Shown here: piece after piece, positions 42,447 to 54,527 of the stretch
Numbering within the stretch: the stretch's first letter is position 1
Layout of the letters: each line of letters begins with the position of its first letter
Origin: Candidatus Adlerbacteria bacterium
GTDB lineage: Bacteria; Patescibacteriota; Minisyncoccia; Phycocordibacterales; SBAW01
Direction: 5' to 3'
NCBI GenBank assembly: GCA_029288895.1
Contig: JARIGK010000001.1
Span: 134,682-198,681 of the forward strand
Length of the DNA stretch: 64,000 nt
Notes under the pieces: generated by a model
Seen by the model: the letters and a program-made list of their open reading frames with translations, nothing else
The model's database searches: none
What the model was told of the DNA's origin: nothing
Translations under genes and position numbers: made by a program

Positions 42447-42710
42447 TTAATTACCTTGGCAGTTGGTGTGCGAGTTGTTGTAGCCAGTTGCGCCAGCGTC
42501 TTGGCCAGTTGCGCCGCCGTGATATCCAGGCGTTCCGCCAGCTTGGCCGAGGAAGCCGAAATTCCCGTTAACGTCAGCGAAGGCGCCATGTGATGCTCCG
42601 CATGCAGATGCGTTTGAACCATCACCTGCGGCAAATGCAGGCATTACTGCCGCTCCGAACAAAAGTGCGCTTGCGCCCGCGCCCAACACTGCTTTCTTGA
42701 AGGTACCCAT
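42447..42710 (-). CDS. Small secreted Gly-rich protein, hypothetical
   Basis: Signal peptide (MGTFKKAVLGAGASALLFGAAVMPAFA) followed by a Gly/Ala/Asn-rich 60-aa region. Confidence 0.45.
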   Translation of the reverse strand: MGTFKKAVLGAGASALLFGAAVMPAFAAGDGSNASACGASHGAFADVNGNFGFLGQAGGTPGYHGGATGQDAGATGYNNSHTNCQGN

Positions 42711-42808
42711 AGATTGCTTAAGAAGTTAACGAATATTTTCCCAGTATACGTACCCTTCATTAATAACGTATGAAATAGAGGAGGTTGAACCTGCCTGCAT
42801 AAAAGAGA

Positions 42809-43187: not shown

Positions 43188-43277
43188 AATTTGCCCACCT
43201 TAGTGGACGACTTTAGAACCATTGATTGGGTGAGAGAGTACCCTGCGCCTGCATTCACGCTGCGACAGGTGCAGGAG

Positions 43278-45065
43278 TTACTGAGGTAGTGTCTCCGTTG
43301 TATCGACGCTTTCTACTACAGCTGGAATTGGTTCAGGCAATTGGACACCATGCATCTTAACGCGTCGCGCATTCAATCGATTTTCTTGGCCAATTTGTAC
43401 TAAAGCTTTTGCAGCTCTCTCAGCAATGGTTTCCGTGTCATCTGCAGTCCTGTTGTTCAGACCACGAGCAGCACGAACAATGCGATGCATTCTATCGCCC
43501 TTTTCAGCCTTAAATATTCTGTAAAAATCTTCGACACTGAGCTTGCTTATTAATTCAGTATCTTCTGGATTCCAGCCATGTTTAATAATCATATCTTCTA
43601 ACACGTCAGCTGGGTTGCGGTCATCAACAAATCTGCTACGCGCTGCATCGAATGCCTGCGCAAGTTCCTCATCTCTTTCTCCATCGTCAAATAGACTTTG
43701 ACGTCCATCGAACAAATCTTTCTCGTCCCTGCGTTCTGTAACGTATTTGGTTATAAGCTCCGTTGCTTCCGTGTTTCTTCCAAACTCTTTGAGCAGCTTA
43801 ACTGTTGAGTTTAGATTGGAAGGGTGAAGGACTCCAATATTTTCCATCGACGCACTAAAAATTTTGTCCATCACTTCTTTTTCGTTATCGTCAAAAGAGC
43901 CGTGGTATGCAGTCCAAGCATCGTGTATATCCTGCTCTTGTTGGGCTTTGTTGGCCACCTTACTTTGCTTCTCAGCTGCCTTTAGGAGAGCTTCTTCATC
44001 AAAGATTCCACTCTGCACGGTCTTATGGATAGCCAAGTCAAAGTCATCAGCACTAAAAAATTTATACTTTGCCATCAACTCAGACCACTTCCTGTCCGTG
44101 TCTGGAATTTGGTTATTATTTCGCAACATACCATGCAGGCGCCCCATATCTGTTAAGAACTCGAATGGCGGCGGTTCGCCGTCCTTCTGATATTTTTCCC
44201 AACCGAATAGCGTTGCCGAGTGAAAGGCTTGGTAGAAAAGCTCTGAATAATCAGTTTGTAATATCCCTTCGAGTCGCGCGCAAATTCTCTCTATCTTTTT
44301 GAGTACTCTGATGTTGGTGATACCAAGAGTGACGCAAAAATCATGCAGCAGTTTTTTGTTACCCGTTGCATCTGCGTCAGGGAAAGCAATGTCCGCTGCT
44401 TCTTGAGGAGTCGGATCAAATTGCAGATGGGTATCAACGACCTTTTCAAGTTGTTTATGGAAAACTTCCTTTTGTCCATCCGCAATTTCTTCTTCGTTGA
44501 GCAAGAGAACAACTTTACACTTGCGTTGTTCTTTTAGCATGGATATAAGTCCGAATACTTCTATGACGTCCAATCCGTTCCCAGCTCTTTCAAGGTCGTC
44601 TATGCATATGATTTGTTCGCCCACAGAGTGAAAGAGAAGTTTTTCAGCTAGTGCAGTTCCGATGTAACTTTGGACTACGGGATTCTGACCCGCCTGCGTT
44701 AACAGCCACCGCACGGAAGAGCCGAGCGTGTCTCGTAAATTTTTCGGCTCCAAAGCTCCTAGTGTCCACTCCTCTCCGATTTTTTCAACGGGTTTTGTAG
44801 CTTCATAGATTGCGTAGCGCAAGTCGTCAATTTTCTTTACTCCAAATAACGATACATATGCGTAGCGCGTTAACTTAATCTTCCCAGCATCTTTTGCTTC
44901 TTTAAGAAAATAGTTCCAACCGTATGTTTTGCCAACGCCCCATTTGCCGCTAATACAAAGCACTTCAGGGTCGGCTCTTTCCAAAAAACGAGTTATTTCT
45001 GCTTTTACAAGTCGTATAGACACGCCCCTATTGTAGCGATAAAAGCTCATGTGAAAAGAGCTCAA
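43278..45065 (-). CDS. KAP-family P-loop NTPase (PifA-like)
   Basis: Walker A ISGKWGVGKT, KAP-type Walker B ICIDDLER, and a long alpha-helical C-terminal half; 595 aa. Confidence 0.8.
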   Translation of the reverse strand: MSSFHMSFYRYNRGVSIRLVKAEITRFLERADPEVLCISGKWGVGKTYGWNYFLKEAKDAGKIKLTRYAYVSLFGVKKIDDLRYAIYEATKPVEKIGEEWTLGALEPKNLRDTLGSSVRWLLTQAGQNPVVQSYIGTALAEKLLFHSVGEQIICIDDLERAGNGLDVIEVFGLISMLKEQRKCKVVLLLNEEEIADGQKEVFHKQLEKVVDTHLQFDPTPQEAADIAFPDADATGNKKLLHDFCVTLGITNIRVLKKIERICARLEGILQTDYSELFYQAFHSATLFGWEKYQKDGEPPPFEFLTDMGRLHGMLRNNNQIPDTDRKWSELMAKYKFFSADDFDLAIHKTVQSGIFDEEALLKAAEKQSKVANKAQQEQDIHDAWTAYHGSFDDNEKEVMDKIFSASMENIGVLHPSNLNSTVKLLKEFGRNTEATELITKYVTERRDEKDLFDGRQSLFDDGERDEELAQAFDAARSRFVDDRNPADVLEDMIIKHGWNPEDTELISKLSVEDFYRIFKAEKGDRMHRIVRAARGLNNRTADDTETIAERAAKALVQIGQENRLNARRVKMHGVQLPEPIPAVVESVDTTETLPQ

Positions 45066-45279
45066 ATGAGAAGAGTTCTTCAGAACAGCGCCGAGTGCTT
45101 CTGCAACACCTGTTCTTGAATCTCACATTGAAGGACAAACAGACGACCTACACGCTGAAAAGCCCATCGAGATACTTTCGATGAGGGTTCAAGAGAAGCT
45201 CGACGCCCAGAAAAACTTCGAACTCCAAAAAACGCCTAAAAGTAAGGCTCGTCTAGAATCTGTTTCGAAAATCGACCCT

Positions 45280-45322
45280 TTGCTCCGCGCGATAGAGGAT
45301 GTTCGAACCTGTATTGCGGTAA
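45280..45322. repeat. Direct repeat A (att-like): TTGCTCCGCG + GATAGAGGATGTTCGAACCTGT...
   Basis: The first 10 nt (45280-45289) match the tRNA-Asn 3' end and flank (53311-53320). Copy A aligns with copy B at about 79% identity. Confidence 0.5.
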
Positions 45323-45371
45323 CTATCTGACTCAAGTAAAGTGGCAGACGGCAGTTTTGAAGGAGACGACA

Positions 45372-45659
45372 ATGACCGTGTGGTTCCCGCGTTACTGGTG
45401 TATGGGGTGCGGAGCACGCTTCGTGTTGGAAGCCGATGCTCTTGAGACCAACCTGACTCCTGAAATCATCCTCTCAGCAATGAGTGCAGGGGAGGGTCCT
45501 TTCAAGCAGCTCAGGACGCATCATGACTGCGGCTTGCATAAAGCGCAAGAAGCAGGGAAGGCGTTGGGAGCTGGTGGGCCCGGGCTCTACTCTTCCAACT
45601 TCGAGCCTTATTGGGGCGAAGCGAAGTTCTGCGGTATGAAGAAGAAAGTTCCAACCTGA
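45372..45659 (+). CDS. Small CxxC protein, hypothetical
   Basis: SD site GGAGA upstream of the ATG at 45372. Begins MTVWFPRYWCMGCGARF. A terminator follows. Confidence 0.4.
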   Translation: MTVWFPRYWCMGCGARFVLEADALETNLTPEIILSAMSAGEGPFKQLRTHHDCGLHKAQEAGKALGAGGPGLYSSNFEPYWGEAKFCGMKKKVPT

Positions 45660-45688
45660 TGACATCCTGCGTTACGAATTTTAGAGGC

Positions 45689-45722
45689 CGCTATCCGCAA
45701 GGAGCGGCCTTTTCTTTTTTGT
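45689..45722 (+). terminator. Intrinsic terminator
   Basis: AGGCCGCT ATCCGCAAGG AGCGGCCT followed by TTTCTTTTTT. Confidence 0.5.
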
Positions 45723-45791
45723 CTAATTATAAAAGTTTTGATGTCCAATTGGGGTATCTAAAATACCCTTGCAAAATAATCTCCAAAAAAT

Positions 45792-45832
45792 GGCTCCGCC
45801 TGATAGAGGACGTTCGAACGTGTTTAAGGTAA
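45792..45832. repeat. Direct repeat B (att-like): GGCTCCGCCTGATAGAGGACGTTCGAACGTGT...
   Basis: About 79% identical to repeat A. Contains the perfect palindrome ACGTTCGAACGT. Confidence 0.5.
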
Positions 45833-45850: not shown

Positions 45851-46645
45851 TCAGACATTTTTTGATAGATAATCTTTCATGACTGCTTTAGCGGCAAAGT
45901 CAAAAGCCGAAGCTGTTATAGGAAGCTTTGCGGCTGCTTTCGCAATATTTTTCCAATCCTCAGGCAGTTCTCCATTCCCAAGTTCTTCTTGGTAAGCAAG
46001 TAGCTGAACGACAAAATCATAATGGCCAGTACTCAAGGTCATGGCAAGCATTAATGCTTTGTGAATTTCTAGCTTCGGACCATAATTGAAATGATATTTA
46101 TTTCCTTTACCGCGGTATCCGTAAAGCTGTGAACCAAATGCGCTTGCGTGAGAACTTTTGCTCAATATTCTAAATGCCTTTTTGGCAGGTTTTCCTCCGT
46201 GAGCAACAATATCTCTTTCAATCGTTCCCTCACTGAAAGCATCCTTAAAAGCTGGATTTTTCTGATAATCATCCTCTGTTTCTTTGAGAAACAAATCACG
46301 AAGTTCTGGATGTGAAAAAAGATATATCAGCATTGATAAATCACTCATTATGCTTCTTACGATCACAAACGCATCTCCGTACAACCCTCTTTCCATAAGT
46401 ATCCTTATCGTTTCAAGATGTTGAATAGACCTGTTCACCAACATAAGTTGGATCGTTTTGAATTTCGCTTCTTCGGTGCCCGGAGTCTCTTTTACTTCAT
46501 TAATCAGTAATGCGACTGCATCTTTCAGAACCCCTAGACCTTCCCAATAAATGGGATAAAGCAGACTGAGAGTCATTTTTGTGCTCTCTTTAATTTCTAG
46601 TTCCAGCGTTTCAAAGTCTCGTCTTCCTTCCACTGGTTTAGACAT
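45851..46645 (-). CDS. Hypothetical protein (third gene of the LexA-like / Y-family-polymerase operon)
   Basis: 264 aa, alpha-helical. Ends 32 bp downstream of the polymerase gene. Confidence 0.4.
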   Translation of the reverse strand: MSKPVEGRRDFETLELEIKESTKMTLSLLYPIYWEGLGVLKDAVALLINEVKETPGTEEAKFKTIQLMLVNRSIQHLETIRILMERGLYGDAFVIVRSIMSDLSMLIYLFSHPELRDLFLKETEDDYQKNPAFKDAFSEGTIERDIVAHGGKPAKKAFRILSKSSHASAFGSQLYGYRGKGNKYHFNYGPKLEIHKALMLAMTLSTGHYDFVVQLLAYQEELGNGELPEDWKNIAKAAAKLPITASAFDFAAKAVMKDYLSKNV

Positions 46646-46677
46646 ATTTATGTAGATCCTAGCATGTTTAAGAGCGA

Positions 46678-47982
46678 TTATTTAACCTCACCAAGCATCG
46701 GTATTCCTATGCGTTGACGTCTATTTTCACCTTTGAATAGTTTAGATGTGCGACCTGGGGCATCGCCTCGTTCGTTTGTGTGAGCGCCCCGCTTCATGGC
46801 TTTCATAGTGGAACCTAGGTAGACAGTGTGTTTGCCGAACTTACTGTCCATTGCATCAACTGCCGCATAGACGGGCTTCCATTTAATAATCTCAGATACT
46901 GCCCCAAATAAGTCCATCTGTATTTCTTTATTGTGCTCAAGCCCCATCAATACAACGCCAGTAGCACGGTAGGGTGTGCGAGGGCGATACACCTTATCAA
47001 ACGACTCACGCACAAGGCGAATAAACTCGTTAGGTAATGATTGAGGAGTGGCAAGTGTTAATTCAAGTCCTGAATAGCGAAACTCTTGAGTCTTAAGAAA
47101 GAAGAATATCTTCTTAGGCGCAAGCTCATACCGACGCGCCTTGATACAGGCATTTTCAATATTCTTTGAGAGTTGGGAGAACACGAACTCTTTGTCAGCA
47201 GATGCAGGAGTAAATGTTTTGGTTTTACTTATGCTCTGGTAGTCGTGCTTTTCCTCAGTTGTGAGGGGGTACACAAACTCTCCACGTAGCTCGTGCCATA
47301 TCTCGCGATACGGTTTGCTCATGTTCGCGTCTATCCACTCAACGGGCTTTTGAGCGTATTGGAGAGATGTCTGAATGCCGTGTTGTTTCAAGAAAGCAGA
47401 TGTCTGTGGGCCAATGCCCCAGATTTTATCTATCGGGAGTTTGCTTAAGTACGTCTCTACTCTGTTTGCAGGGATAATAGTCAGCCCCGATGGTTTCTTC
47501 CACTTGGAACCTACCTTTGCAAGCACCTTATTTGGTGCGAGGCCGATAGAAAAGGTCATTCCAAGTTCTGTGTCCAAGTCGTGCTTTATGGCCTCTGCTA
47601 TGGCCTCATATGACATCCTGAGAGACCTGCGCATGCCTGTTAAATCAGCAAAGCATTCATCAATACTGTATTCCTCAACAGCCTCTGTATATCGCCTCAC
47701 AATGGCGTACATACGCTTAGAGAAGAGACTGTAGGTCTCGTAGTCAGAAGGGAGAATGATGACCTCGGGGCATATCTTTTTAATCTCTCGCAGAGACATG
47801 CCACGCTTCACGCCCATAGCCTTCAGCTCGTAGCTCATGGAAGATGCGATGCCGCGTTCTTTGCCAGTAACCACAGGTTTGCCTTTAAGTGCTGGGTTTA
47901 CGGCGGCTTCGCATGACGCAAAGAACGAGTCCCCATCAATATGTATTATTGCGCGGGGGAATGAGCGGATAGAGAGCGGCAT
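46678..47982 (-). CDS. Y-family DNA polymerase (UmuC/DinB-like)
   Basis: HIDGDSFFASCE (Y-family motif I), SIDECFADLTG, and little-finger region; 434 aa. Confidence 0.85.
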   Translation of the reverse strand: MPLSIRSFPRAIIHIDGDSFFASCEAAVNPALKGKPVVTGKERGIASSMSYELKAMGVKRGMSLREIKKICPEVIILPSDYETYSLFSKRMYAIVRRYTEAVEEYSIDECFADLTGMRRSLRMSYEAIAEAIKHDLDTELGMTFSIGLAPNKVLAKVGSKWKKPSGLTIIPANRVETYLSKLPIDKIWGIGPQTSAFLKQHGIQTSLQYAQKPVEWIDANMSKPYREIWHELRGEFVYPLTTEEKHDYQSISKTKTFTPASADKEFVFSQLSKNIENACIKARRYELAPKKIFFFLKTQEFRYSGLELTLATPQSLPNEFIRLVRESFDKVYRPRTPYRATGVVLMGLEHNKEIQMDLFGAVSEIIKWKPVYAAVDAMDSKFGKHTVYLGSTMKAMKRGAHTNERGDAPGRTSKLFKGENRRQRIGIPMLGEVK

Positions 47983-47983
47983 A

Positions 47984-48544
47984 TCAGTATTTACGGATTA
48001 CAGCTTGTACAACAGCTTCTATTGTGAGTTCGTTCTCAGGATAAATATCTTTGAATTTTTTATTTGCCGCTTGGAGAAATACTTTGTTTCCTTCCTTGCG
48101 GTAGTACTTCATAGTGTACTCGCCGTCTACTTGGGCAATGACAATCTGCCCTGGCTTTGGGGTTTTACCACGTTCAACCAGCACCATATCTCCCTCCATA
48201 ATTCCTGCATCAATCATTGAGTCACCTTTAACTTTGAGCATAAAAGTTGCCTCTTTATTTTTTATCAAGTATTCATCCAAGCTCATCGTGTCCACCAACT
48301 CTTCTTCAGCAGGGGAAGGGAAGCCTGCTTCTACTGTGCCAAGAAGAGAGACAGTATTTAGAAGATCGCGAGGGATGAGTTTACCTTTCTTGTCTTTGCT
48401 AACAACTCCAGAATCTATGAGTTTTTGAACTGCATATTGGGTTGCGCCCTTGCTTTTATATCCAAGCAGCAGAGACAACTCGCTGTATGAGGGCATACGA
48501 CGATGTTTTTTGTAGAAGGAAAAGAGTTTGCTTTGAGGCGTCAT
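47984..48544 (-). CDS. LexA/UmuD-like S24 peptidase with an N-terminal wHTH
   Basis: N-terminal DNA-binding domain. GDSM Ser nucleophile and a downstream Lys (MKYYRKEG). Ends 2 bp before the polymerase gene. Confidence 0.75.
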   Translation of the reverse strand: MTPQSKLFSFYKKHRRMPSYSELSLLLGYKSKGATQYAVQKLIDSGVVSKDKKGKLIPRDLLNTVSLLGTVEAGFPSPAEEELVDTMSLDEYLIKNKEATFMLKVKGDSMIDAGIMEGDMVLVERGKTPKPGQIVIAQVDGEYTMKYYRKEGNKVFLQAANKKFKDIYPENELTIEAVVQAVIRKY

Positions 48545-48601
48545 CCCCTCAGTATATTAGTACGTTCGTACTAGTGTCAAACTCAGCTTATCTTAGCGTT
48601 T

Positions 48602-49606
48602 TTACCAGAACTTGAGCCAATTAAAGATGCTTTGCCATATAGGTCTTTTTGGAAATCCAGGTATTGTCGTTGTGGTAGAATTTTTAACCGCCGACACTGC
48701 TGAGGTACTGACAGAGCTAGATGCAGATTTCTTTATGGAACCAGCTGAAAAATCTTTTAATTGTGAAGGCGCTTTAATCGTTGGCGGCGGTGTTGAGACG
48801 GGTAAAGTCACTGATTGGGAACCTTCCTCGACACAGGTCGTTTGATCTGCGTTGAGTTCGTACCCTTCAGCGCAACTACATAGATTCTGGCCCGCAACAA
48901 TCCCATGCGGACCTAGCTTTTGATTACAAAGTTCGATGGGGTCTGGGCCGGAAGGAACACAGGATGTCTTGCTGGAGTCCATCTTATAACCCTGATCGCA
49001 GTAGCAGCCAGCCCCTGTATTGGTGGAATTTGGTGGACATGAGGATGTGGGCACAGGTTGTGTGACAGCTTTTATCTGCGAGGAATATTGTTTATAAAAA
49101 TTTGCTTGTTGTTGGAGAAATTCCGTATCTCCTAAGGCATAGCATTCTGTGTACGCTTGGTTAGAAGCAACTCTGTAGTTGCCAAGGGCGATTTGCATAA
49201 TACTTGAAAGCTTTAAAGCATCAATTGCTTTTTGACGGTCGCAAAAAGATTGAGTATCTCCTTGGCAGGGAACGTAATAAGAAGCAATAACCGCATCTGC
49301 TGCATCTCGAGCTTTATTTGCCAAGCTATCGAGATTATATTTTGCATTTATAGATTGAAATTCGCTGGCAGTGCAAAGATGCAGCGAGTCGGTACATTCG
49401 TTGGTACTCCAATACGAAACAGTGCTATCAGCCCAGCCATCATTACAAATTACGCTTCCATCCCAATCTGATCCCGCCCTACAATTCACTCCGCCGTGGT
49501 AAGAGCAGGCTCCAGAAGTTGCGAAGGTATGATTTGAAAAACTTAAAAAAAAGAGTGCCAGAAATAGTCCCGTAAAGACTGCTTTTCTCATTCTGCAATA
49601 GTGCAT
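48602..49606 (-). CDS. Secreted cysteine-rich protein (EGF-like Cys spacing), hypothetical
   Basis: Signal peptide. More than 20 Cys in repeated CxxxC / CxC contexts, with a C-terminal S/T-rich tail. Confidence 0.45.
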   Translation of the reverse strand: MHYCRMRKAVFTGLFLALFFLSFSNHTFATSGACSYHGGVNCRAGSDWDGSVICNDGWADSTVSYWSTNECTDSLHLCTASEFQSINAKYNLDSLANKARDAADAVIASYYVPCQGDTQSFCDRQKAIDALKLSSIMQIALGNYRVASNQAYTECYALGDTEFLQQQANFYKQYSSQIKAVTQPVPTSSCPPNSTNTGAGCYCDQGYKMDSSKTSCVPSGPDPIELCNQKLGPHGIVAGQNLCSCAEGYELNADQTTCVEEGSQSVTLPVSTPPPTIKAPSQLKDFSAGSIKKSASSSVSTSAVSAVKNSTTTTIPGFPKRPIWQSIFNWLKFW

Positions 49607-49680
49607 GTTCTCTTCACAAAAGTACAGGGACTCAAGTGAATACTCGAAATCATCCTTTTATTGGGCTATATTAACGACAA

Positions 49681-50592
49681 ATGAGTATGAGATGGCCTAA
49701 AAAAAGGAGGACGGCATATTCTGTAACATCTCAGGCAAAAAATCATTTCTTTTCTTATATAGACAGCCTTAAGGTGAGAACTTTGATCGATGAGTTAAGA
49801 AGGGAGTTTGGCATTCCAAAAAATGGGTTCAGACATAGACCCAAAAAAGAAAATTCAGAAAGAAGGCCTTATTATCCCGATGAATACTGCATATATGTCT
49901 CTCCCTCGGGAGTTCTTTCGCCAGAACAAAGAAGGCTTTATAAGTTGATGAATGAAAAAGAAAAGGTGCTGGAAAAAGCCCTTGATAAATTAATGGAGAA
50001 ATTTGAGATTTGGCCCCATGATTTCTGGAGGAACGTTTTCTCTATCTATTTATTTCATGGTGAAGTTCCTGAAAAGTACTTCAAATACAGTTATACAAAA
50101 GAATTTTCGCCTGGTGGATTAATTCCGGACATTTGTTATGTCTATCCTCTTAACGATAGATTGCTCATAGAACTGAGAGATTGGGAGAAGCTAGGCGAAG
50201 ACGATGAAGTCAAAGTTTGGTACTTCGACGCCTTAAAAGAAGTTGCTCACAAATACCCTGTAGGGATTTTATTGTCACCATACATATCACTGACTCAGCT
50301 AAAAGCCTACATTTCTAAACAGTGGCCGGTAATTGAACGACAGCTAGATAATGCGTATATGCAGAAAGCATATGCAGACAATGAGGTCTTACAAAATTGG
50401 TCATTAGGTCGCACAAAACCGCGTGTTCTTCGGGAAAGAGATTCTTTCATAATGAAGTTACATCTCGAAGGTAAAGATCGAAAAACTATACTAGCAAGGG
50501 TGGTGAAGCGCTACGGAAAAAGAAATATGGATGCAAATTATATAAGCACAATTATTGCTCGAGAAAAGAAACACAACAGCGACCGTTCATAG
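49681..50592 (+). CDS. Hypothetical protein (island cargo)
   Basis: 303 aa, basic N-terminus, AT-rich codon usage unlike the core genes. Confidence 0.4.
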   Translation: MSMRWPKKRRTAYSVTSQAKNHFFSYIDSLKVRTLIDELRREFGIPKNGFRHRPKKENSERRPYYPDEYCIYVSPSGVLSPEQRRLYKLMNEKEKVLEKALDKLMEKFEIWPHDFWRNVFSIYLFHGEVPEKYFKYSYTKEFSPGGLIPDICYVYPLNDRLLIELRDWEKLGEDDEVKVWYFDALKEVAHKYPVGILLSPYISLTQLKAYISKQWPVIERQLDNAYMQKAYADNEVLQNWSLGRTKPRVLRERDSFIMKLHLEGKDRKTILARVVKRYGKRNMDANYISTIIAREKKHNSDRS

Positions 50593-50637
50593 TTATTGTT
50601 GTCGCCATAGAGGGTTCGCTGGGAATATAGTTTTCCC

Positions 50638-50898
50638 ATGCTGAATGAAAATGACCTGTTCGAAACCAGCGATCTGCCACTCGTAGCAGCTCTCCTTTCG
50701 CATGGGGCAAAGATTGAGTTTCTGGAGCGAAATGGTGGCCCACGGGTCAGCTTCTATTTCCGCCGAGAACGGGCTCTAGATAAGCTCGTAGAGGCCTTTT
50801 GGGCGCACTCACTTACAGTTGAGCCACTCCAGTATTTTAATGCCTTGAAAGAAGCGAAAACGCGCCTTTATGGTGTGCCTATAATCTATGGAAATTAG
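50638..50898 (+). CDS. DUF5659-like small protein
   Basis: LFETSDLPLVAALLSHGAKIEFLERNG...FYFRRERALDKLVEAFW...ALKEAKTRLYG fits the DUF5659 pattern. Confidence 0.45.
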   Translation: MLNENDLFETSDLPLVAALLSHGAKIEFLERNGGPRVSFYFRRERALDKLVEAFWAHSLTVEPLQYFNALKEAKTRLYGVPIIYGN

Positions 50899-51039
50899 CC
50901 TGGAAAAACTAGAGGAATTTATAGCTCTATATCGCCAGGAATATGGATTGGATCTAACTCCGGCTGAAGCTCTGGAGCAGGCAATTCCTTTAATTTTACT
51001 CGTGCAAATTGTTAAGAATTGATAAGTTCCGAATGAAAA

Positions 51040-51522
51040 ATGAATATGGAACCGATTAAAAACTTTGTACCTTTCCCTCGTCGAATCTTAAGCGACGTTC
51101 TTAATGGACGCATGAGTGGTCCAGAGTTTTTTGTATATGCGTGGATACGTGGCAAGGGCAATCCTTATGCAGTTTCCCAAGTATCAATCCCGGAAATTAG
51201 GGCTGCCTACCCTGGCACAGTCAGCGACAATCATATCTATAAACTCATTCGCTCCTTACGAAAGAAGAAGTACCTTTACTACCCGGACCGTGCTGGACGT
51301 AGAGGTTCGTTCGAGGTGCATATGGGCGAATGGACACTACCTGACGGGAGTTTTAAGACTCTGGAAAGATTCTTTGTGCAGCAAACAGTCAGAACTTCAC
51401 AACCGGCGTCACCTCCAGTTCGCCCAGAGGTTAGGGATGAAAACAAAGACGTTAATCAGGGGTTCGAAATGATGAAAAAACATATGGCAGAACGTTTTAA
51501 ACTACCTCCTTCGAATGAATGA
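51040..51522 (+). CDS. Hypothetical protein (possible DNA-binding/replication function)
   Basis: 160 aa, basic. Confidence 0.35.
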   Translation: MNMEPIKNFVPFPRRILSDVLNGRMSGPEFFVYAWIRGKGNPYAVSQVSIPEIRAAYPGTVSDNHIYKLIRSLRKKKYLYYPDRAGRRGSFEVHMGEWTLPDGSFKTLERFFVQQTVRTSQPASPPVRPEVRDENKDVNQGFEMMKKHMAERFKLPPSNE

Positions 51523-51737
51523 ATCAGAGCTTACTAGAATGAGAATAAGAAAAAGAAAAATATATCTTTGTCGAACTTATTCGCCTCTTTTTGGCTTTGA
51601 TTCTTTGATTAAATATCAAAATAATCAAAATTTATTCCGCCATGGAATTATCGGACATTATGGGAGGCTTTTTGACACTATAAAAAGGGATTTTTGGGAG
51701 CAGTACGCGCGTAGAAGCGAGAGATATACTTAACGTT

Positions 51738-53352
51738 ATGGAAGGTGCCAAGAAATACATTTTGTACGCTCGTAAAAGCTCCGAGTCTGAAGATAGACAA
51801 ATGGCCTCGATTGATTCTCAGGTACAAGAGCTTCAAAAACTCGCTGCAGAGCTTCGTTTAGAGGTCGTAGACGTGCTTTCGGAGTCTCAGTCTGCCAAAG
51901 CTCCGGGCAGGCCTGTTTTTAATACCCTGCTCGCTCGGATTCAGGCTGGAGAGGCCGATGGCATCCTTTGTTGGAAGATTAATCGTCTGGCTCGTAACCC
52001 GATAGATGGCGGACAGATAAGCTGGTTGCTCCAGGGCGGAACGCTGAAGCATATACAGACCTTTGGTCGAGGCTATTACTCCACCGACAATGTCATCATG
52101 ATGGCGGTGGAGCTTGGTATGGCGAACCAGTTTATCCGTGACCTAAGTACTGACACAAAGCGTGGATTGAAAGCCAAGGCAGAGCGCGGCTGGTATCCAA
52201 CTTTTGCTTCCATCGGGTATATGCACAATCCTTATAAACACAAAGGGCAAAAAGAAATAATCGAGGATCCAGAACGTTTTGATTTGGTGCGGAAGATGTT
52301 CGACTTTATGCTCACGGGCAACTACACTCCGCCCAAGATTTTAGAGCTGGCCAACGATCAGTGGGGTCTTCGAACTCGCCAGGGCAATAAAATAGCTCGA
52401 AGTAATATCTACCGTATTTTTTCTGATCCCTTCTACTACGGCGAATTTGAGTACCCCAAAGGCAGCGGTAACTGGCACAAAGGACAGCACAAAGCGATGA
52501 TAACAAGGCAGGAGTTCGACCGAATCCAGTTTTTTGATTGGACGCAAGGATTCAATACGACCCAAGACCTATGAATTTGATTTCAGAGGACCAATCCACT
52601 GTGGTGAGTGCGGAGCAATGATCACCGCAGAACATAAACTCAAGCGCCAGAAGAATGGGCTGGTTCGAAGCTATATTTATTACCACTGCACAAAACGCAA
52701 ACAGATTGCCTGCTCCCAGCCGTCAATCGAAGAAAAAGAGCTAAATCGGCAGATATCTGAAATCGTTGGAAGATTGGAAATACCCGAATCGTTTTATAAG
52801 TGGGCCATGGACATCCTTAGAGAACAAAACGCAGTGGAGTCCAAGGGCAGAGAGCAGATCGTCGCCCGACAAAGAAAAGAATACGATTTAGTAATGGAGA
52901 AAATAGATCGACTGATCGATCTGAGGTCTGCAGGGGAAATCACGGCAGATGAGTTTGCGGACAGGAAGCGCTTTTTAAACGGTGAAAAAAGCGCTCTGGA
53001 GGCTCTCTTGGCCACGACAGCCGCCGGGGTCAGTGAGTGGCTAGACACCGTCGATAAGTATTTTTCATTTGCTGAAAGTGCCAAGCGCGCGTTCGATCAC
53101 GGCACTCTGGAGATAAAACGGGAGATTTTAGGGGCTCTTGGTTCGAACCTTCTTTTGAAAGATAGGAAATTGAGCGTCAGTCTCGCTAAACCTCTGACTC
53201 TTATCGAAACGGTAGCTTCTGAAGCTCGCACTATTAGCCAAATGTTCGAACCTCTAGACACCGTTGTTAAACAACGTGATATCAGACAAATCTACTCTGA
53301 AAATCCTAACTTGCTCCGCGACCAGGACTCGAACCTGGAACCAACTCCTTAA
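51738..53352 (+). pseudogene. Large serine recombinase (integrase), disrupted by a +1/-1 frameshift in a T6 run
   Basis: ORF1 (51738-52574) is the resolvase catalytic domain (YARKSSESEDRQ) plus recombinase domain. ORF2 (52534-53352) is the zinc ribbon (CGECGAM...C) plus coiled-coil. Deleting one T at 52530-52535 fuses them. The 3' end overlaps tRNA-Asn by 39 nt. Confidence 0.8.
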
Positions 53353-53385
53353 CAGGGAGCTGCTCTACCATTGAGCTATCGCGGA
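53314..53385 (-). tRNA. tRNA-Asn (anticodon GTT)
   Basis: Cloverleaf folded by hand: 7-bp acceptor stem UCCGCGA/UCGCGGA, D-arm GCUC/GAGC, anticodon loop CUGUUAA, variable loop UGGUU, T-arm CCAGG-UUCGAGU-CCUGG, discriminator G. CCA is not encoded. Confidence 0.85.
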
Positions 53386-53849: not shown

Positions 53850-54527
53850 TTACTGCACAACTATTGTTGCCGTTGCAGTGTCGCCGCCAGTGCCAAGGAA
53901 GGTGTAGGTGTACGTGCCGGGGATGCTCGGGAGGCGGACGCTGCCTGTCGAGAAGTTGCCGCCGCCATCTGCGTGTGCGTGTGCCACCTGCATACCACTC
54001 ATCATAACCATGACATCTTCTTCAGCCATAAAGTTGTGACCGCCGAAATCAATTTGGTCGCCCGCTGCTTTCATCATGCCCTGTTGGTCGATGTGCGCGA
54101 CGCCCATCATTGGTGGAGTTGTGGTGCCGCCGTCTGGCATTGTAGTGGTACCCATGCCAAGGAGGTAATGGATAAACCATTCAAGTTGCGAGGTGAAGTT
54201 GGGGAAGGTAGGTTCGAGCCCACGCAATGCACTGATAAACGAATTCAAGTCGCCGGACGTTGGCGGAGTTGTAGTGCCTGTGGTGCTTGTGCCTGTTGAT
54301 GTGCTAAAAACAGTGCCCGTGAGCATACCTTGGAGCATGCTGCTTGTTGTGGACGACGTTGTTGTTGCAGTTGTCGATGTTGCTGTTGCAGATGATGCGT
54401 CAATAACAGTCCCTGTTAATGTGTTCGATGTCGAAGTGGCTTGTTGTGCATGAGCGAGCGCAGTAGTGCTACCAATACCAATAATGAGCGCCGCACTCAT
54501 GAGCCACAGTATGTTCTGTGCTCTCAT
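53850..54527 (-). CDS. Secreted Ser/Thr-rich protein, hypothetical
   Basis: Signal peptide (MRAQNILWLMSAALIIGIGSTTALAHA), T/S-rich linkers, and a Met/His-rich segment. Confidence 0.45.
   Translation of the reverse strand: MRAQNILWLMSAALIIGIGSTTALAHAQQATSTSNTLTGTVIDASSATATSTTATTTSSTTSSMLQGMLTGTVFSTSTGTSTTGTTTPPTSGDLNSFISALRGLEPTFPNFTSQLEWFIHYLLGMGTTTMPDGGTTTPPMMGVAHIDQQGMMKAAGDQIDFGGHNFMAEEDVMVMMSGMQVAHAHADGGGNFSTGSVRLPSIPGTYTYTFLGTGGDTATATIVVQ

What the first reader, a model, noticed from the sequence alone, without database searches (positions are those of the whole stretch)
45280..45832. Two 42-bp att-like direct repeats with a palindromic GTTCGAAC core bracketing a 0.5 kb mini-segment
Repeat A (45280-45322) and repeat B (45792-45832) are about 79% identical: GCTCCGC..GATAGAGGA(Y)GTTCGAAC(S)TGT..GGTAA. 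Copy B contains the perfect 12-bp palindrome ACGTTCGAACGT. Copy A begins with the tRNA-Asn 3'-end decamer. Only a 95-aa CxxC protein gene and its terminator lie between them. A recombinase binding site flanked by imperfect inverted half-sites with a CG centre is what a serine-recombinase att site looks like. The pair may therefore be attR-type scars of two successive or nested integrations, or operator sites for an island regulator.
Basis: seen in the sequence. Interest (0 to 1): 0.55.

Follow-up and report, generated by a model that had tools for sequence, protein, structure and literature searches.

The report
Stacked serine-integrase attachment sites beside tRNA-Asn
The two repeats are real, and they are leftover attachment sites of a serine integrase that inserts small mobile islands into the end of a tRNA-Asn gene; several islands were stacked here one after another, which is a known and fairly ordinary way for such islands to pile up.

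Summary
Copies A (45282-45312) and B (45793-45823) are 87% identical over 31 nt. Their shared 18-mer occurs twice, against 0.06 expected.

They are not isolated. Two more copies lie to the left: D (43193-43220, strong) and C (42775-42793, degenerate). All four sit in a low-GC block (about 42.8-53.3 kb). The block ends at tRNA-Asn and holds a frameshifted large serine recombinase whose 3' end runs into the tRNA.

Among 80 related recombinase loci, at least 61 show the same recombinase/tRNA overlap. The A/B motif recurs upstream on the recombinase strand, in the same register. It follows 7-8 nt of whichever tRNA 3' end that locus targets.

I read each copy as a crossover core plus the element-side P' half-site of attP. 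The T-loop-like TTMGAACC lies exactly 5 bp further from the core than the real T-loop does in the tRNA. That is the published attP/attB signature of serine integrases.

Copy A follows a recombinase 3' remnant, so it is a tandem-array junction. The GTTCGAAC palindrome, however, is not the crossover centre and is not conserved in the family. The operator idea has no support. Closest precedent: Dehalococcoides ssrA islands.

The parts
45282..45322 (+). Copy A. Core GCTCCGCG (45282-89), CG, then P' half-site ATAGAGGATGTTCGAACC (45292-45309) and tail. A P|P' (attP-like) junction between two stacked elements.
   Evidence: Matrix score 17.2. In register with attL/attP sites of other loci. Left arm resembles P arms (p about 0.007) and belongs to a recombinase remnant.
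45793..45832 (+). Copy B. Core GCTCCGCC, TG, then P' half-site ATAGAGGACGTTCGAACG and tail. The junction at the left end of the tRNA-proximal 7.5-kb element. Its left arm is TGG (CCA-encoding) plus an A-run.
   Evidence: Left arm is not P-arm-like (p 0.6-0.7) and no recombinase remnant was detected.
43193..43220 (+). Copy D. Core-like GCCCACCT plus TAGTGGACGACTTTAGAACC.
   Evidence: Matrix built from other loci only scores it 24.0. 0 of 200 shuffles reach 24. Tail reads ..NLPTLVDDFRTIDW...
42775..42793 (+). Copy C. Degenerate P' arm ATAGAGGAGGTT-GAACCTG with a 1-nt deletion and no tRNA core, at the left GC boundary.
   Evidence: Seen. Local alignment score 28 against a null maximum of 20-25.
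53313..53385 (-). tRNA-Asn(GTT). Its 3' end (core 53313-53320) plus T-arm forms the B' arm. With the recombinase 3' end it makes attR (P|B').
   Evidence: ARAGORN. Rfam tRNA 71.7 bits. Sequence.
51738..53352 (+). Large serine recombinase gene. It is frameshifted in or near the T6 run at 52530-52535, and its last 13 codons are encoded by the tRNA-Asn 3' end.
   Evidence: Pfam Resolvase, Recombinase and Zn_ribbon_recom. Frames. The repaired 537-aa protein is colinear over residues 1-535 with intact relatives at up to 60% identity.
45056..45330 (+). Frameshifted 3' remnant (about 95 codons) of a second recombinase gene of the same family. It ends in the excised-state tail ..SKIDPLLRAIEDVRTCIAVTI* and reads through copy A.
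   Evidence: tblastn of the stitched remnant hits the C-terminal ends of recombinases in L031 (3e-5), L071, L042, L055 and L059.
45372..45659 (+). 95-aa CxxC ORF in the 0.5-kb mini-segment. It is an ORFan with GC 0.556.
   Evidence: The only hit among 5.8 billion proteins is itself. GC. No Pfam hit.
45686..45722 (+). GC-rich hairpin followed by a T-run after the CxxC ORF, a probable terminator.
   Evidence: Read. Weak ctRNA-like Rfam hit below threshold. Not called by the consensus scan because the loop exceeds 8 nt.
43278..45065 (-). KAP-family P-loop NTPase gene, the cargo of the D-to-A segment.
   Evidence: Pfam PF07693. GC 0.438.
45851..51733 (.). Cargo of the tRNA-proximal element: DUF5677, a Y-family polymerase, an S24 peptidase, a 334-aa EGF-like protein, a 303-aa protein, DUF5659, and 160-aa and 72-aa proteins.
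   Evidence: Pfam. DUF5659, the 160-aa protein and S24 recur in related loci.

Best explanation
A and B are attachment-site junctions left by a family of large serine recombinases (LSRs) that integrate small islands into the 3' end of tRNA genes, here tRNA-Asn.

Each copy has two parts. The first is a 7-8 nt crossover core copied from the tRNA 3' end (GCTCCGC, tRNA positions about 74-68). The second is the element-side P' half-site of attP.

In the circular element, attP spans the end of the recombinase gene. The P arm is the gene's last codons (AAATCC-N6-core). The P' arm encodes an excised-state tail (..LLRxxxDVRT..). Integration swaps P' for the tRNA T-arm (B').

The half-site design is that of LSRs. 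A GGA/AGA triplet sits at the same distance from the core in P' and B'. The T-loop-like 8-mer TT(C/A)GAACC sits 5 bp further out in P' than the real T-loop does in the tRNA.

New elements insert at the tRNA side, which pushes older junctions leftwards. The block 42.8-53.3 kb is therefore a stack:
- C, then a small segment.
- D, then the KAP NTPase gene and a recombinase remnant.
- A, then the CxxC mini-segment.
- B, then the 7.5-kb element with the frameshifted recombinase.
- attR and the tRNA-Asn.

Shown: the site anatomy, the register, the family-wide recurrence, the remnant, and tandem arrays elsewhere. Inferred: which protein domain binds which part, the exact crossover dinucleotide, and the order of events. 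With the only full-length recombinase frameshifted, the sites are most likely inactive relics now.
For: - The island context fits. There is a low-GC block, an LSR with Resolvase, Recombinase and Zn-ribbon domains adjacent to and overlapping tRNA-Asn, and no tyrosine integrase.
- 57 of 80 related loci have a convergent tRNA (Asn, Gln, Ser, Lys, Trp, His, Gly, Ile, Arg) at the recombinase 3' end. At least 4 more have intron-containing tRNA genes.
- P'-type sites recur upstream of the recombinase, 35 on its strand against 4 on the other. The core that precedes them matches the tRNA targeted in that locus: Lys GTGCGCCC in L020 and L022, Gln GCTGCGGG in L050 and L070, Ile in L024, Asn in L012, L028, L042 and L059.
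- In L012, L078 and L080 the recombinase ORF runs straight into a P' arm with no tRNA. These look like intact attP sites.
- GAAC starts 18 nt from the core start in every attR and 23 nt in every P' site. This matches the 5-bp shift of the zinc-ribbon-domain (ZD) motif between attB and attP reported for the Listeria innocua (LI) integrase (PMC3783163).
- L028 and L042 hold two full recombinase genes, and the upstream one is followed directly by a P' site. L022 has attL, a P|P' junction preceded by a 27-codon remnant, and attR.
- The window's copy A is preceded by a recombinase 3' remnant.
- A metagenome scan of the exact A/B-type 22-mer gave 4 hits. Three are directly preceded by GCTCCGCTG with unrelated left flanks.
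- A matrix built only from other loci finds A, B and D in the window, 3 hits at or above 17 against 0.125 expected.
Against: - No recombination was observed, and no empty site could be found. The host has no close relative in the databases; the next-best Usg homologue is 76% identical.
- B has a trailer-like left arm but lies inside the array, not at its outer edge. This needs either a deleted integrase or an integrase-less unit.
- D has a non-Asn core and C has none.
- The P arm shows no mirrored counterpart of TTAGAACC.
- Variation in the P' motif is largely synonymous for D-V-R-T, with Arg as CGA, AGA or CGC. Part of its conservation is therefore protein-coding constraint rather than DNA recognition.
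- The rest of the host genome could not be scanned for dispersed copies.
Confidence: 0.85

Rival explanations
1. The segments between the sites are live, integrase-less mini-elements (P'-cargo-P units, like cis-mobilisable elements). A related recombinase moves them in trans, so A and B are working ends of a 0.5-kb mobile unit rather than dead scars.
For: - P' sites are kept far more often than recombinase remnants. The window has 4 sites and 1 remnant. L018 has 4 sites and L007 has 3, with no remnant in either.
- Where remnants exist they are short terminal pieces: 27 codons in L022 and about 95 in the window.
- B's left arm would supply a correct CCA end to the tRNA.
- Integrase-less islands in Dehalococcoides ssrA arrays were interpreted this way (PMC3146451).
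Against: - The CxxC ORF is an ORFan seen nowhere else, so there is no sign that the unit has moved.
- B-left and D-left do not resemble P arms.
- Some inter-site distances in L018 are only 55 nt, too small for an element.
- The only full-length recombinase here is frameshifted.
Confidence: 0.15
2. The repeats are similar only because they are homologous 3' coding ends of recombinase genes or pseudogenes (tails ..IEDVRTC..). They have no role as DNA sites.
For: - All copies keep the same reading frame: IEDVRTCIAVTI*, IEDVRTCLR*, VDDFRTIDW.
- Family variation is synonymous for D-V-R-T.
Against: - The tail lies exactly where attP must be. It is replaced by tRNA sequence in every integrated copy.
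- It sits at the far end of integrated elements, joined to the displaced tRNA core and with no recombinase upstream (L020, L024, L070, L089).
- The constant 5-bp offset relative to the T-loop is a DNA-level feature.
- The two readings are compatible rather than exclusive.
Confidence: 0.08
3. They are operator sites for an island-encoded regulator, for example the S24/LexA-like protein at 47984-48544, which would bind the GTTCGAAC palindrome.
For: - There is a palindrome in B and a near-palindrome in A.
- A lies about 60 nt upstream of the CxxC ORF.
Against: - The palindrome is not conserved in the family; GTTAGAAC predominates.
- The motif co-occurs with the recombinase and tRNA core in loci that lack any S24 gene, which is present in 3 of 80.
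- No copy lies at the S24 or polymerase promoter.
- All copies share one orientation, unlike typical operators.
Confidence: 0.03
4. They are ordinary tRNA 3'-end direct repeats made by a tyrosine integrase, or pseudo-tRNA fragments, or a dispersed REP/MITE-type repeat.
For: The first 8-10 nt match the tRNA-Asn 3' end, and TCGAACCTG matches the T-arm.
Against: - There is no tyrosine integrase in the block.
- Identity to the tRNA is limited to the 7-10 nt core. The T-loop-like part is out of register by 5 nt and cannot form a T-arm.
- Rfam and ARAGORN call nothing at A or B.
- Within 64 kb the copies occur only inside the island, all on one strand.
- Hits to the 18-mer in viral contigs are an unrelated coding sequence.
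Confidence: 0.03

Closest known systems
Dehalococcoides ssrA-specific genomic islands with the serine integrase DsiB (McMurdie et al. 2011, PMC3146451)
   Same: A recombinase of about 540 aa of the large-serine type. The target is the tRNA-like 3' end of a stable-RNA gene. The att repeat is embedded in the integrase gene. Islands are stacked in tandem, each bounded by a short repeat of the RNA 3' end plus a conserved adjacent motif that does not match the RNA gene. Many units in the array have no integrase and were interpreted as cis-mobilisable elements.
   Different: The target here is tRNA-Asn, and nine tRNA species across the family, not tmRNA. The inferred crossover is in the acceptor stem rather than the T-loop. 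There is no DsiA-like second recombinase or the rest of that integration module. Sequence relatedness to DsiB was not tested.
Listeria innocua prophage (LI/A118-type) serine integrase attP/attB architecture (Rutherford et al. 2013, PMC3783163)
   Same: The recombinase-domain (RD) contact sits at the same place in both site types. The motif bound by the zinc-ribbon domain (ZD) lies 5 bp nearer the centre in attB than in attP, at positions 11-19 against 16-24. Here the T-loop-like 8-mer lies at about 12-20 in B' and 17-25 in P'.
   Different: Which domain contacts which bases is inferred here, not shown. The left (P) arm lacks a mirrored motif. The recombinase is under 28% identical to characterised LSRs such as TP901-1 Int. 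It gives only sub-threshold XisF and CcrB matches in NCBIfam.
Tandem arrays of integrative genetic elements and accretion (Mageeney et al. 2020, PMC7192596; CIME/ICE accretion in streptococci, from my own knowledge)
   Same: Integration restores a usable core at the element ends, so further elements insert and build arrays of diverse neighbours.
   Different: Most described arrays are made by tyrosine integrases with long identity blocks. Here the identity block is 7-10 nt and the enzyme is an LSR. For an LSR, a hybrid attR is not expected to serve as attB, yet L028 and L042 show that it does.
Integration-dependent changes of a gene product because attP lies inside an ORF (mycobacteriophage integration-dependent immunity; from my own knowledge, not checked here)
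   Same: The crossover lies inside a coding sequence, so the integrated and excised states encode different C-termini.
   Different: There the affected gene is the repressor and the enzyme is a tyrosine integrase. Here the recombinase's own tail changes, and no regulatory consequence has been shown.

Membership tests
Large serine recombinase attachment sites | A cognate recombinase with resolvase catalytic domain, recombinase domain and zinc-ribbon domain encoded next to the site | tested here: met
   Pfam Resolvase 6e-19, Recombinase 8e-9, Zn_ribbon_recom 2e-8 for 51738-53352. The gene is frameshifted.
Large serine recombinase attachment sites | A short identity block containing the crossover dinucleotide, shared by the sites at both ends of the element | tested here: met
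   GCTCCGC is shared by A, B and attR. In other loci the attL/attR identity blocks always include core nt 1-5. The dinucleotide itself was not determined.
Large serine recombinase attachment sites | The distal (ZD) motif lies 5 bp further from the centre in attP-type than in attB-type half-sites, with the proximal motif unmoved | tested here: met
   GAAC starts at 23 nt from the core start in P' and 18 nt in B', in all sites. GGA sits at nt 13-15 in both consensus arms. Definition from PMC3783163.
Large serine recombinase attachment sites | Imperfect inverted symmetry of the two arms of attP | tested here: inconclusive
   Only TCC/GGA is mirrored. The P arm has no counterpart of TTAGAACC.
Large serine recombinase attachment sites | Recombinase-dependent recombination of attP with attB | not testable with these tools
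   Needs an in vitro or in vivo assay with the repaired enzyme.
Tandem (accretion) array of integrative elements | Several att-type junctions in direct orientation on one side of the target gene, separated by unrelated cargo | tested here: met
   C, D, A and B are all on the + strand between 42775 and 45832, then attR at 53313. The cargo differs between segments.
Tandem (accretion) array of integrative elements | Internal junctions are of the P|P' type, preceded by an integrase gene or its remnant | tested here: inconclusive
   Met for A. Not detectable for B and D. Met in L022, L028, L042 and L050.
Tyrosine-integrase tRNA islands | A tyrosine recombinase gene, and direct repeats that are plain copies of the tRNA 3' segment | tested here: not met
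   No Phage_integrase domain in the block. Only 7-10 nt are tRNA-identical.
Transcription-factor operator | A conserved palindrome positioned at promoters of the regulated genes and co-occurring with the regulator gene | tested here: not met
   The palindrome is not conserved. The motif is independent of the S24 gene. All copies share one orientation.

The most novel reading that the evidence does not exclude
The array may be an integron-like store. Integrase-less mini-units (P' arm, one or two genes, minimal P arm) would be captured and released at a tRNA gene by a serine recombinase acting in trans. The recombinase's own C-terminal tail would be exchanged by integration: a DVRT tail when excised and a tRNA-encoded tail when integrated. 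That exchange could serve as a built-in switch of directionality.

The family would also be naturally programmable. A universal T-loop half-site plus a short exchangeable acceptor-stem core would let it retarget among at least nine tRNA species.
Probability: 0.12. Interest if true: 0.7.

Novelty: new member of a known kind. Interest (0 to 1): 0.4.

Why it matters
For this window, the result settles what the repeats are. It redraws the island as a stack of four att-bounded segments rather than one element.

More widely, it exposes an uncharacterised family of large serine recombinases that is abundant in Patescibacteria and also present in Proteobacteria and other phyla. In this family attP sits across the end of the recombinase gene, and attB is the acceptor/T-arm end of a tRNA gene.

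The family gives a natural, many-fold replicated illustration of the 5-bp attP/attB rule. It suggests that specificity can be moved between tRNA species by changing a 7-8 nt core. That is relevant to people who engineer serine integrases.

It also shows that a hybrid attR can serve as a target for further integration, which the standard LSR model does not predict.

Tried and rejected
- **Rfam and ARAGORN on the region.** Nothing at A or B, only the tRNA-Asn.
- **Viral-contig scan of the 18-mer.** Five hits, all in one unrelated phage coding sequence.
- **Search for an empty site or the host identity.** The exact Usg protein is not in the contig index. Its only identical match is an unnamed NCBI protein on a 219-kb contig, and the next relative is 76% identical. 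No comparison with an unoccupied tRNA-Asn was possible.
- **CxxC protein as a conserved directionality factor or cassette gene.** No homologue in the 80 loci or among 5.8 billion proteins. Rejected.
- **Recombinase remnant upstream of B.** No enrichment of hits at recombinase C-termini and no similarity of B-left to P arms. Unresolved.
- **tRNA-like fold of the repeats.** By eye, the T-loop-like part is 5 nt out of register with the acceptor part, and A and B would form different hairpins. Not pursued.
- **Characterised relatives.** Phage records give at most 28% identity (TP901-1 Int, Faecalibacterium phages). NCBIfam gives only sub-threshold XisF and Ccr matches.
- **Literature.** Searches for this family (serine recombinase with tRNA and Patescibacteria, or with tRNA-Asn) found nothing specific.

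Full report
**The observation.** The sequence at 45280-45832 is as described.
- The repeat finder reports 45282-45312 and 45793-45823 as a 31-nt direct repeat, 87% identical, 511 nt apart.
- The shared 18-mer GATAGAGGAYGTTCGAAC occurs twice in the window, against 0.06 expected.
- The A-B local alignment scores 45, against a shuffle maximum of 20-25.
- TTGCTCCGCG at the start of A equals the end of the tRNA-Asn gene plus two trailer bases.
- Between the copies lie a 95-aa CxxC ORF (45372-45659) and a hairpin with a T-run.

**Surroundings.**
- tRNA-Asn(GTT) lies at 53313-53385 on the minus strand.
- A block from about 42.8 to 53.3 kb has 41-47% GC, against 52-57% on both sides.
- At its right end is a large serine recombinase gene with Resolvase, Recombinase and Zn-ribbon domains. 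It is split by a frameshift in or near a T6 run.
- Its last 13 codons (LLRDQDSNLEPTP*) are the reverse complement of the tRNA 3' end and T-arm.
- The rest of the block carries a KAP NTPase, DUF5677, a Y-family polymerase with an S24 peptidase, DUF5659 and unknowns. There is no tyrosine integrase.

**Related elements.** The repaired 537-aa recombinase found 279 relatives in the genome collection. The best 80 were kept, at up to 60% identity. Most are Patescibacteria/Saccharibacteria MAGs, with some Gammaproteobacteria, Ignavibacteriales, Clostridia and others.
- In 57 of the 80, a convergent tRNA gene overlaps or abuts the recombinase 3' end, exactly as in the window. The tRNAs are Gln 21, Asn 17, Ser 7, then Trp, Lys, Arg, Gly, His and Ile.
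- Several loci where ARAGORN called no tRNA have tRNA halves interrupted by group I introns.
- This is therefore a family of tRNA-targeting serine integrases whose gene crosses the attachment site.

**What the repeat is.** A fuzzy search, and then a weight matrix, found the A/B motif in the related loci. There were 35 hits on the recombinase strand against 4 on the other, and nearly all lie upstream of the recombinase.
- All hits share one register: 8 nt, then NN, then NTGGACGAYGTTAGAACC.
- In L012, L078 and L080 the recombinase ORF runs directly through such a motif and no tRNA is present. The tails read ..LLRMLNDVRTYLL....LGLLDDVRTVLL.. and ..YRLVKDVRTFYL... These are intact attP sites.
- The motif is therefore the P' arm of attP. 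After integration it ends up at the far end of the element, joined to the displaced tRNA 3' end. The recombinase end (P arm, consensus AAATCC-N6-core) becomes joined to the tRNA body.
- A metagenome scan with the exact A/B-type 22-mer gave four hits. Three are directly preceded by GCTCCGCTG with unrelated left flanks, and one flank is a terminator hairpin, as expected for a native tRNA trailer.

**Half-site anatomy.**
- In every attR, GAAC of the T-loop begins 18 nt from the core start. In every P' site it begins 23 nt from it.
- In the consensus, GGA occupies nt 13-15 in both arms. TTCGAACC follows at 16-23 in the tRNA arm, and TTAGAACC at 21-28 in the P' arm.
- Rutherford et al. showed for the Listeria innocua (LI) integrase that the motif bound by the zinc-ribbon domain (ZD) lies 5 bp closer to the centre in attB than in attP, while the recombinase domain (RD) binds at the same place (PMC3783163).
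- The mirrored TCC (P arm) and GGA (P' arm) put the centre between core nt 3 and 4, which are tRNA positions 72 and 71. The attL/attR identity blocks of all loci include core nt 1-5.
- The crossover is therefore in the acceptor-stem part at the left edge of the repeat, not in the GTTCGAAC palindrome.
- That palindrome is a peculiarity of this element. The family consensus is GTTAGAAC, with GTCAGAAC and GTTCGCAC variants.
- These variants are synonymous for D-V-R-T (GAY, GTY, CGA/AGA/CGC, ACN). Part of the conservation is therefore selection on the excised-state tail of the protein.

**The array in the window.**
- A matrix built only from other loci finds three sites in the window, all on the + strand: A and B (17.2 each) and a new one, D, at 43193-43220 (24.0, above all 200 shuffles). 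That is three hits at or above 17, against 0.125 expected.
- A degenerate fourth copy, C (42775-42793, with a 1-nt deletion), sits at the left GC boundary.
- The 275 nt left of A are a frameshifted 3' remnant of a second recombinase gene. The stitched peptide hits the C-terminal 80 residues of recombinases in five loci (E from 3e-5 to 5e-3) and ends ..SKIDPLLRAIEDVRTCIAVTI*.
- A is thus a P|P' junction between two stacked elements.
- Complete examples of such stacks exist. L028 and L042 have two full recombinase genes, and the upstream one is followed at once by a P' site. L022 has attL, then a P|P' junction preceded by a 27-codon remnant, then attR.
- Arrays of two to four P' sites also occur in L007, L018, L051 and L063.
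- The general phenomenon of tandem element arrays is described in PMC7192596.

**What stays open.**
- B has a CCA-encoding core flank and an A-run, like a native tRNA trailer. It shows no detectable similarity to P arms or to a recombinase end. Yet it lies inside the array, where a native trailer cannot be.
- Either the integrase of the CxxC segment was deleted to within 80 nt of the junction, or that segment is an integrase-less unit with its own minimal P arm.
- P' sites outnumber recombinase remnants in several arrays. Random decay does not predict this, and it keeps the second reading alive.
- The CxxC ORF is an ORFan with host-like GC, so there is no sign that the unit has moved.
- D has a non-Asn core.
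- No empty site could be obtained, because the host has no close relative in the databases.

**Comparison with the known.**
- The closest described system is the Dehalococcoides ssrA island family. It has a serine integrase of about 540 aa, the att repeat embedded in the integrase gene, tandem islands bounded by a repeat of the RNA 3' end plus a conserved non-RNA motif, and many integrase-less islands (PMC3146451).
- The recombinase here is only distantly related to characterised enzymes: under 28% identity to TP901-1 Int, and sub-threshold XisF and CcrB matches.
- Literature searches found no description of this tRNA-targeting family. I have not excluded that island databases already list members.

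**Verdict.**
- It is wrong in anatomy: the crossover centre is not in the palindrome, and the sites are attL- or attP-type rather than attR-type.
- The feature is a new member of a known kind and is probably inactive today.
- The side finding is of moderate interest: a widespread LSR family that uses a T-loop mimic displaced by 5 bp and retargets among tRNA species.

Noticed in passing
window 51738-53352 and 53313-53385; L012 3873-3948, L078 11572-11659, L080 1840-1906: The recombinase ORF crosses the attachment site. Integrated copies end in tRNA-encoded tails (..LLRDQDSNLEPTP*). Unintegrated ones end in ..LLxxxDVRTxxx tails, and the Arg codon varies CGA/AGA/CGC, which points to protein-level selection. 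This could act as an integration-state switch.
   Followed up: partly
window 43193-43220 and 42775-42793: Two further P'-type sites, D (strong, non-Asn core GCCCACCT) and C (degenerate, no core), lie left of the reported pair. The low-GC block therefore holds four att-bounded segments.
   Followed up: yes
window 45056-45330: A frameshifted 3' remnant (about 95 codons) of a second recombinase gene abuts the start of the KAP NTPase gene, which lies on the other strand.
   Followed up: yes
L084 3430-3626, L038 11636-11984, L006 4679-4975, L059 10759-10991: The tRNA genes targeted by the recombinase in these Patescibacteria loci carry group I introns (Rfam RF00028), which hid them from ARAGORN.
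   Followed up: partly
L028 1370-2853, L042 3102-4692: Two complete recombinase genes lie in tandem. A hybrid attR (P|B') evidently served as the target for a second integration, which the standard LSR attP x attB rule does not predict.
   Followed up: partly
L018 302-1484, L007 2996-5357, L063 1781-3029, L051 1608-3085: Arrays of 2-4 P'-type sites spaced 55 nt to 1.7 kb apart, with no detectable recombinase remnants. P' arms are kept more often than random decay would predict.
   Followed up: partly
window 46678-48544: An S24 (LexA/UmuD-like) peptidase with a possible HTH, plus a Y-family DNA polymerase, form island cargo. The S24 gene recurs in L061 (56% identity), L036 and L042.
   Followed up: no
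window 50638-51522: DUF5659 and a 160-aa unknown protein form a module upstream of the recombinase. It is shared with many related loci and may be accessory recombination or regulatory genes, for example a directionality factor.
   Followed up: no
window 48602-49606: A 334-aa minus-strand ORF has weak cEGF / factor-Xa-inhibitory-site matches, which is unusual for a bacterial island protein.
   Followed up: no
window 45372-45659: The CxxC ORF is an ORFan, with only itself among 5.8 billion proteins. Its GC is 0.556, against about 0.44 for the neighbouring island segments. It may not be a real gene, or it may have a different origin.
   Followed up: partly
L007 7568-7682: LOOT RNA (Rfam RF03000, 72 bits) lies inside a related Saccharibacteria element.
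   Followed up: no
window 42447-42710 and 53850-54527: The chromosomal genes flanking the block encode low-complexity secreted-looking proteins (Gly/Ala-rich 87 aa; Thr-rich 225 aa) with no Pfam match.
   Followed up: no
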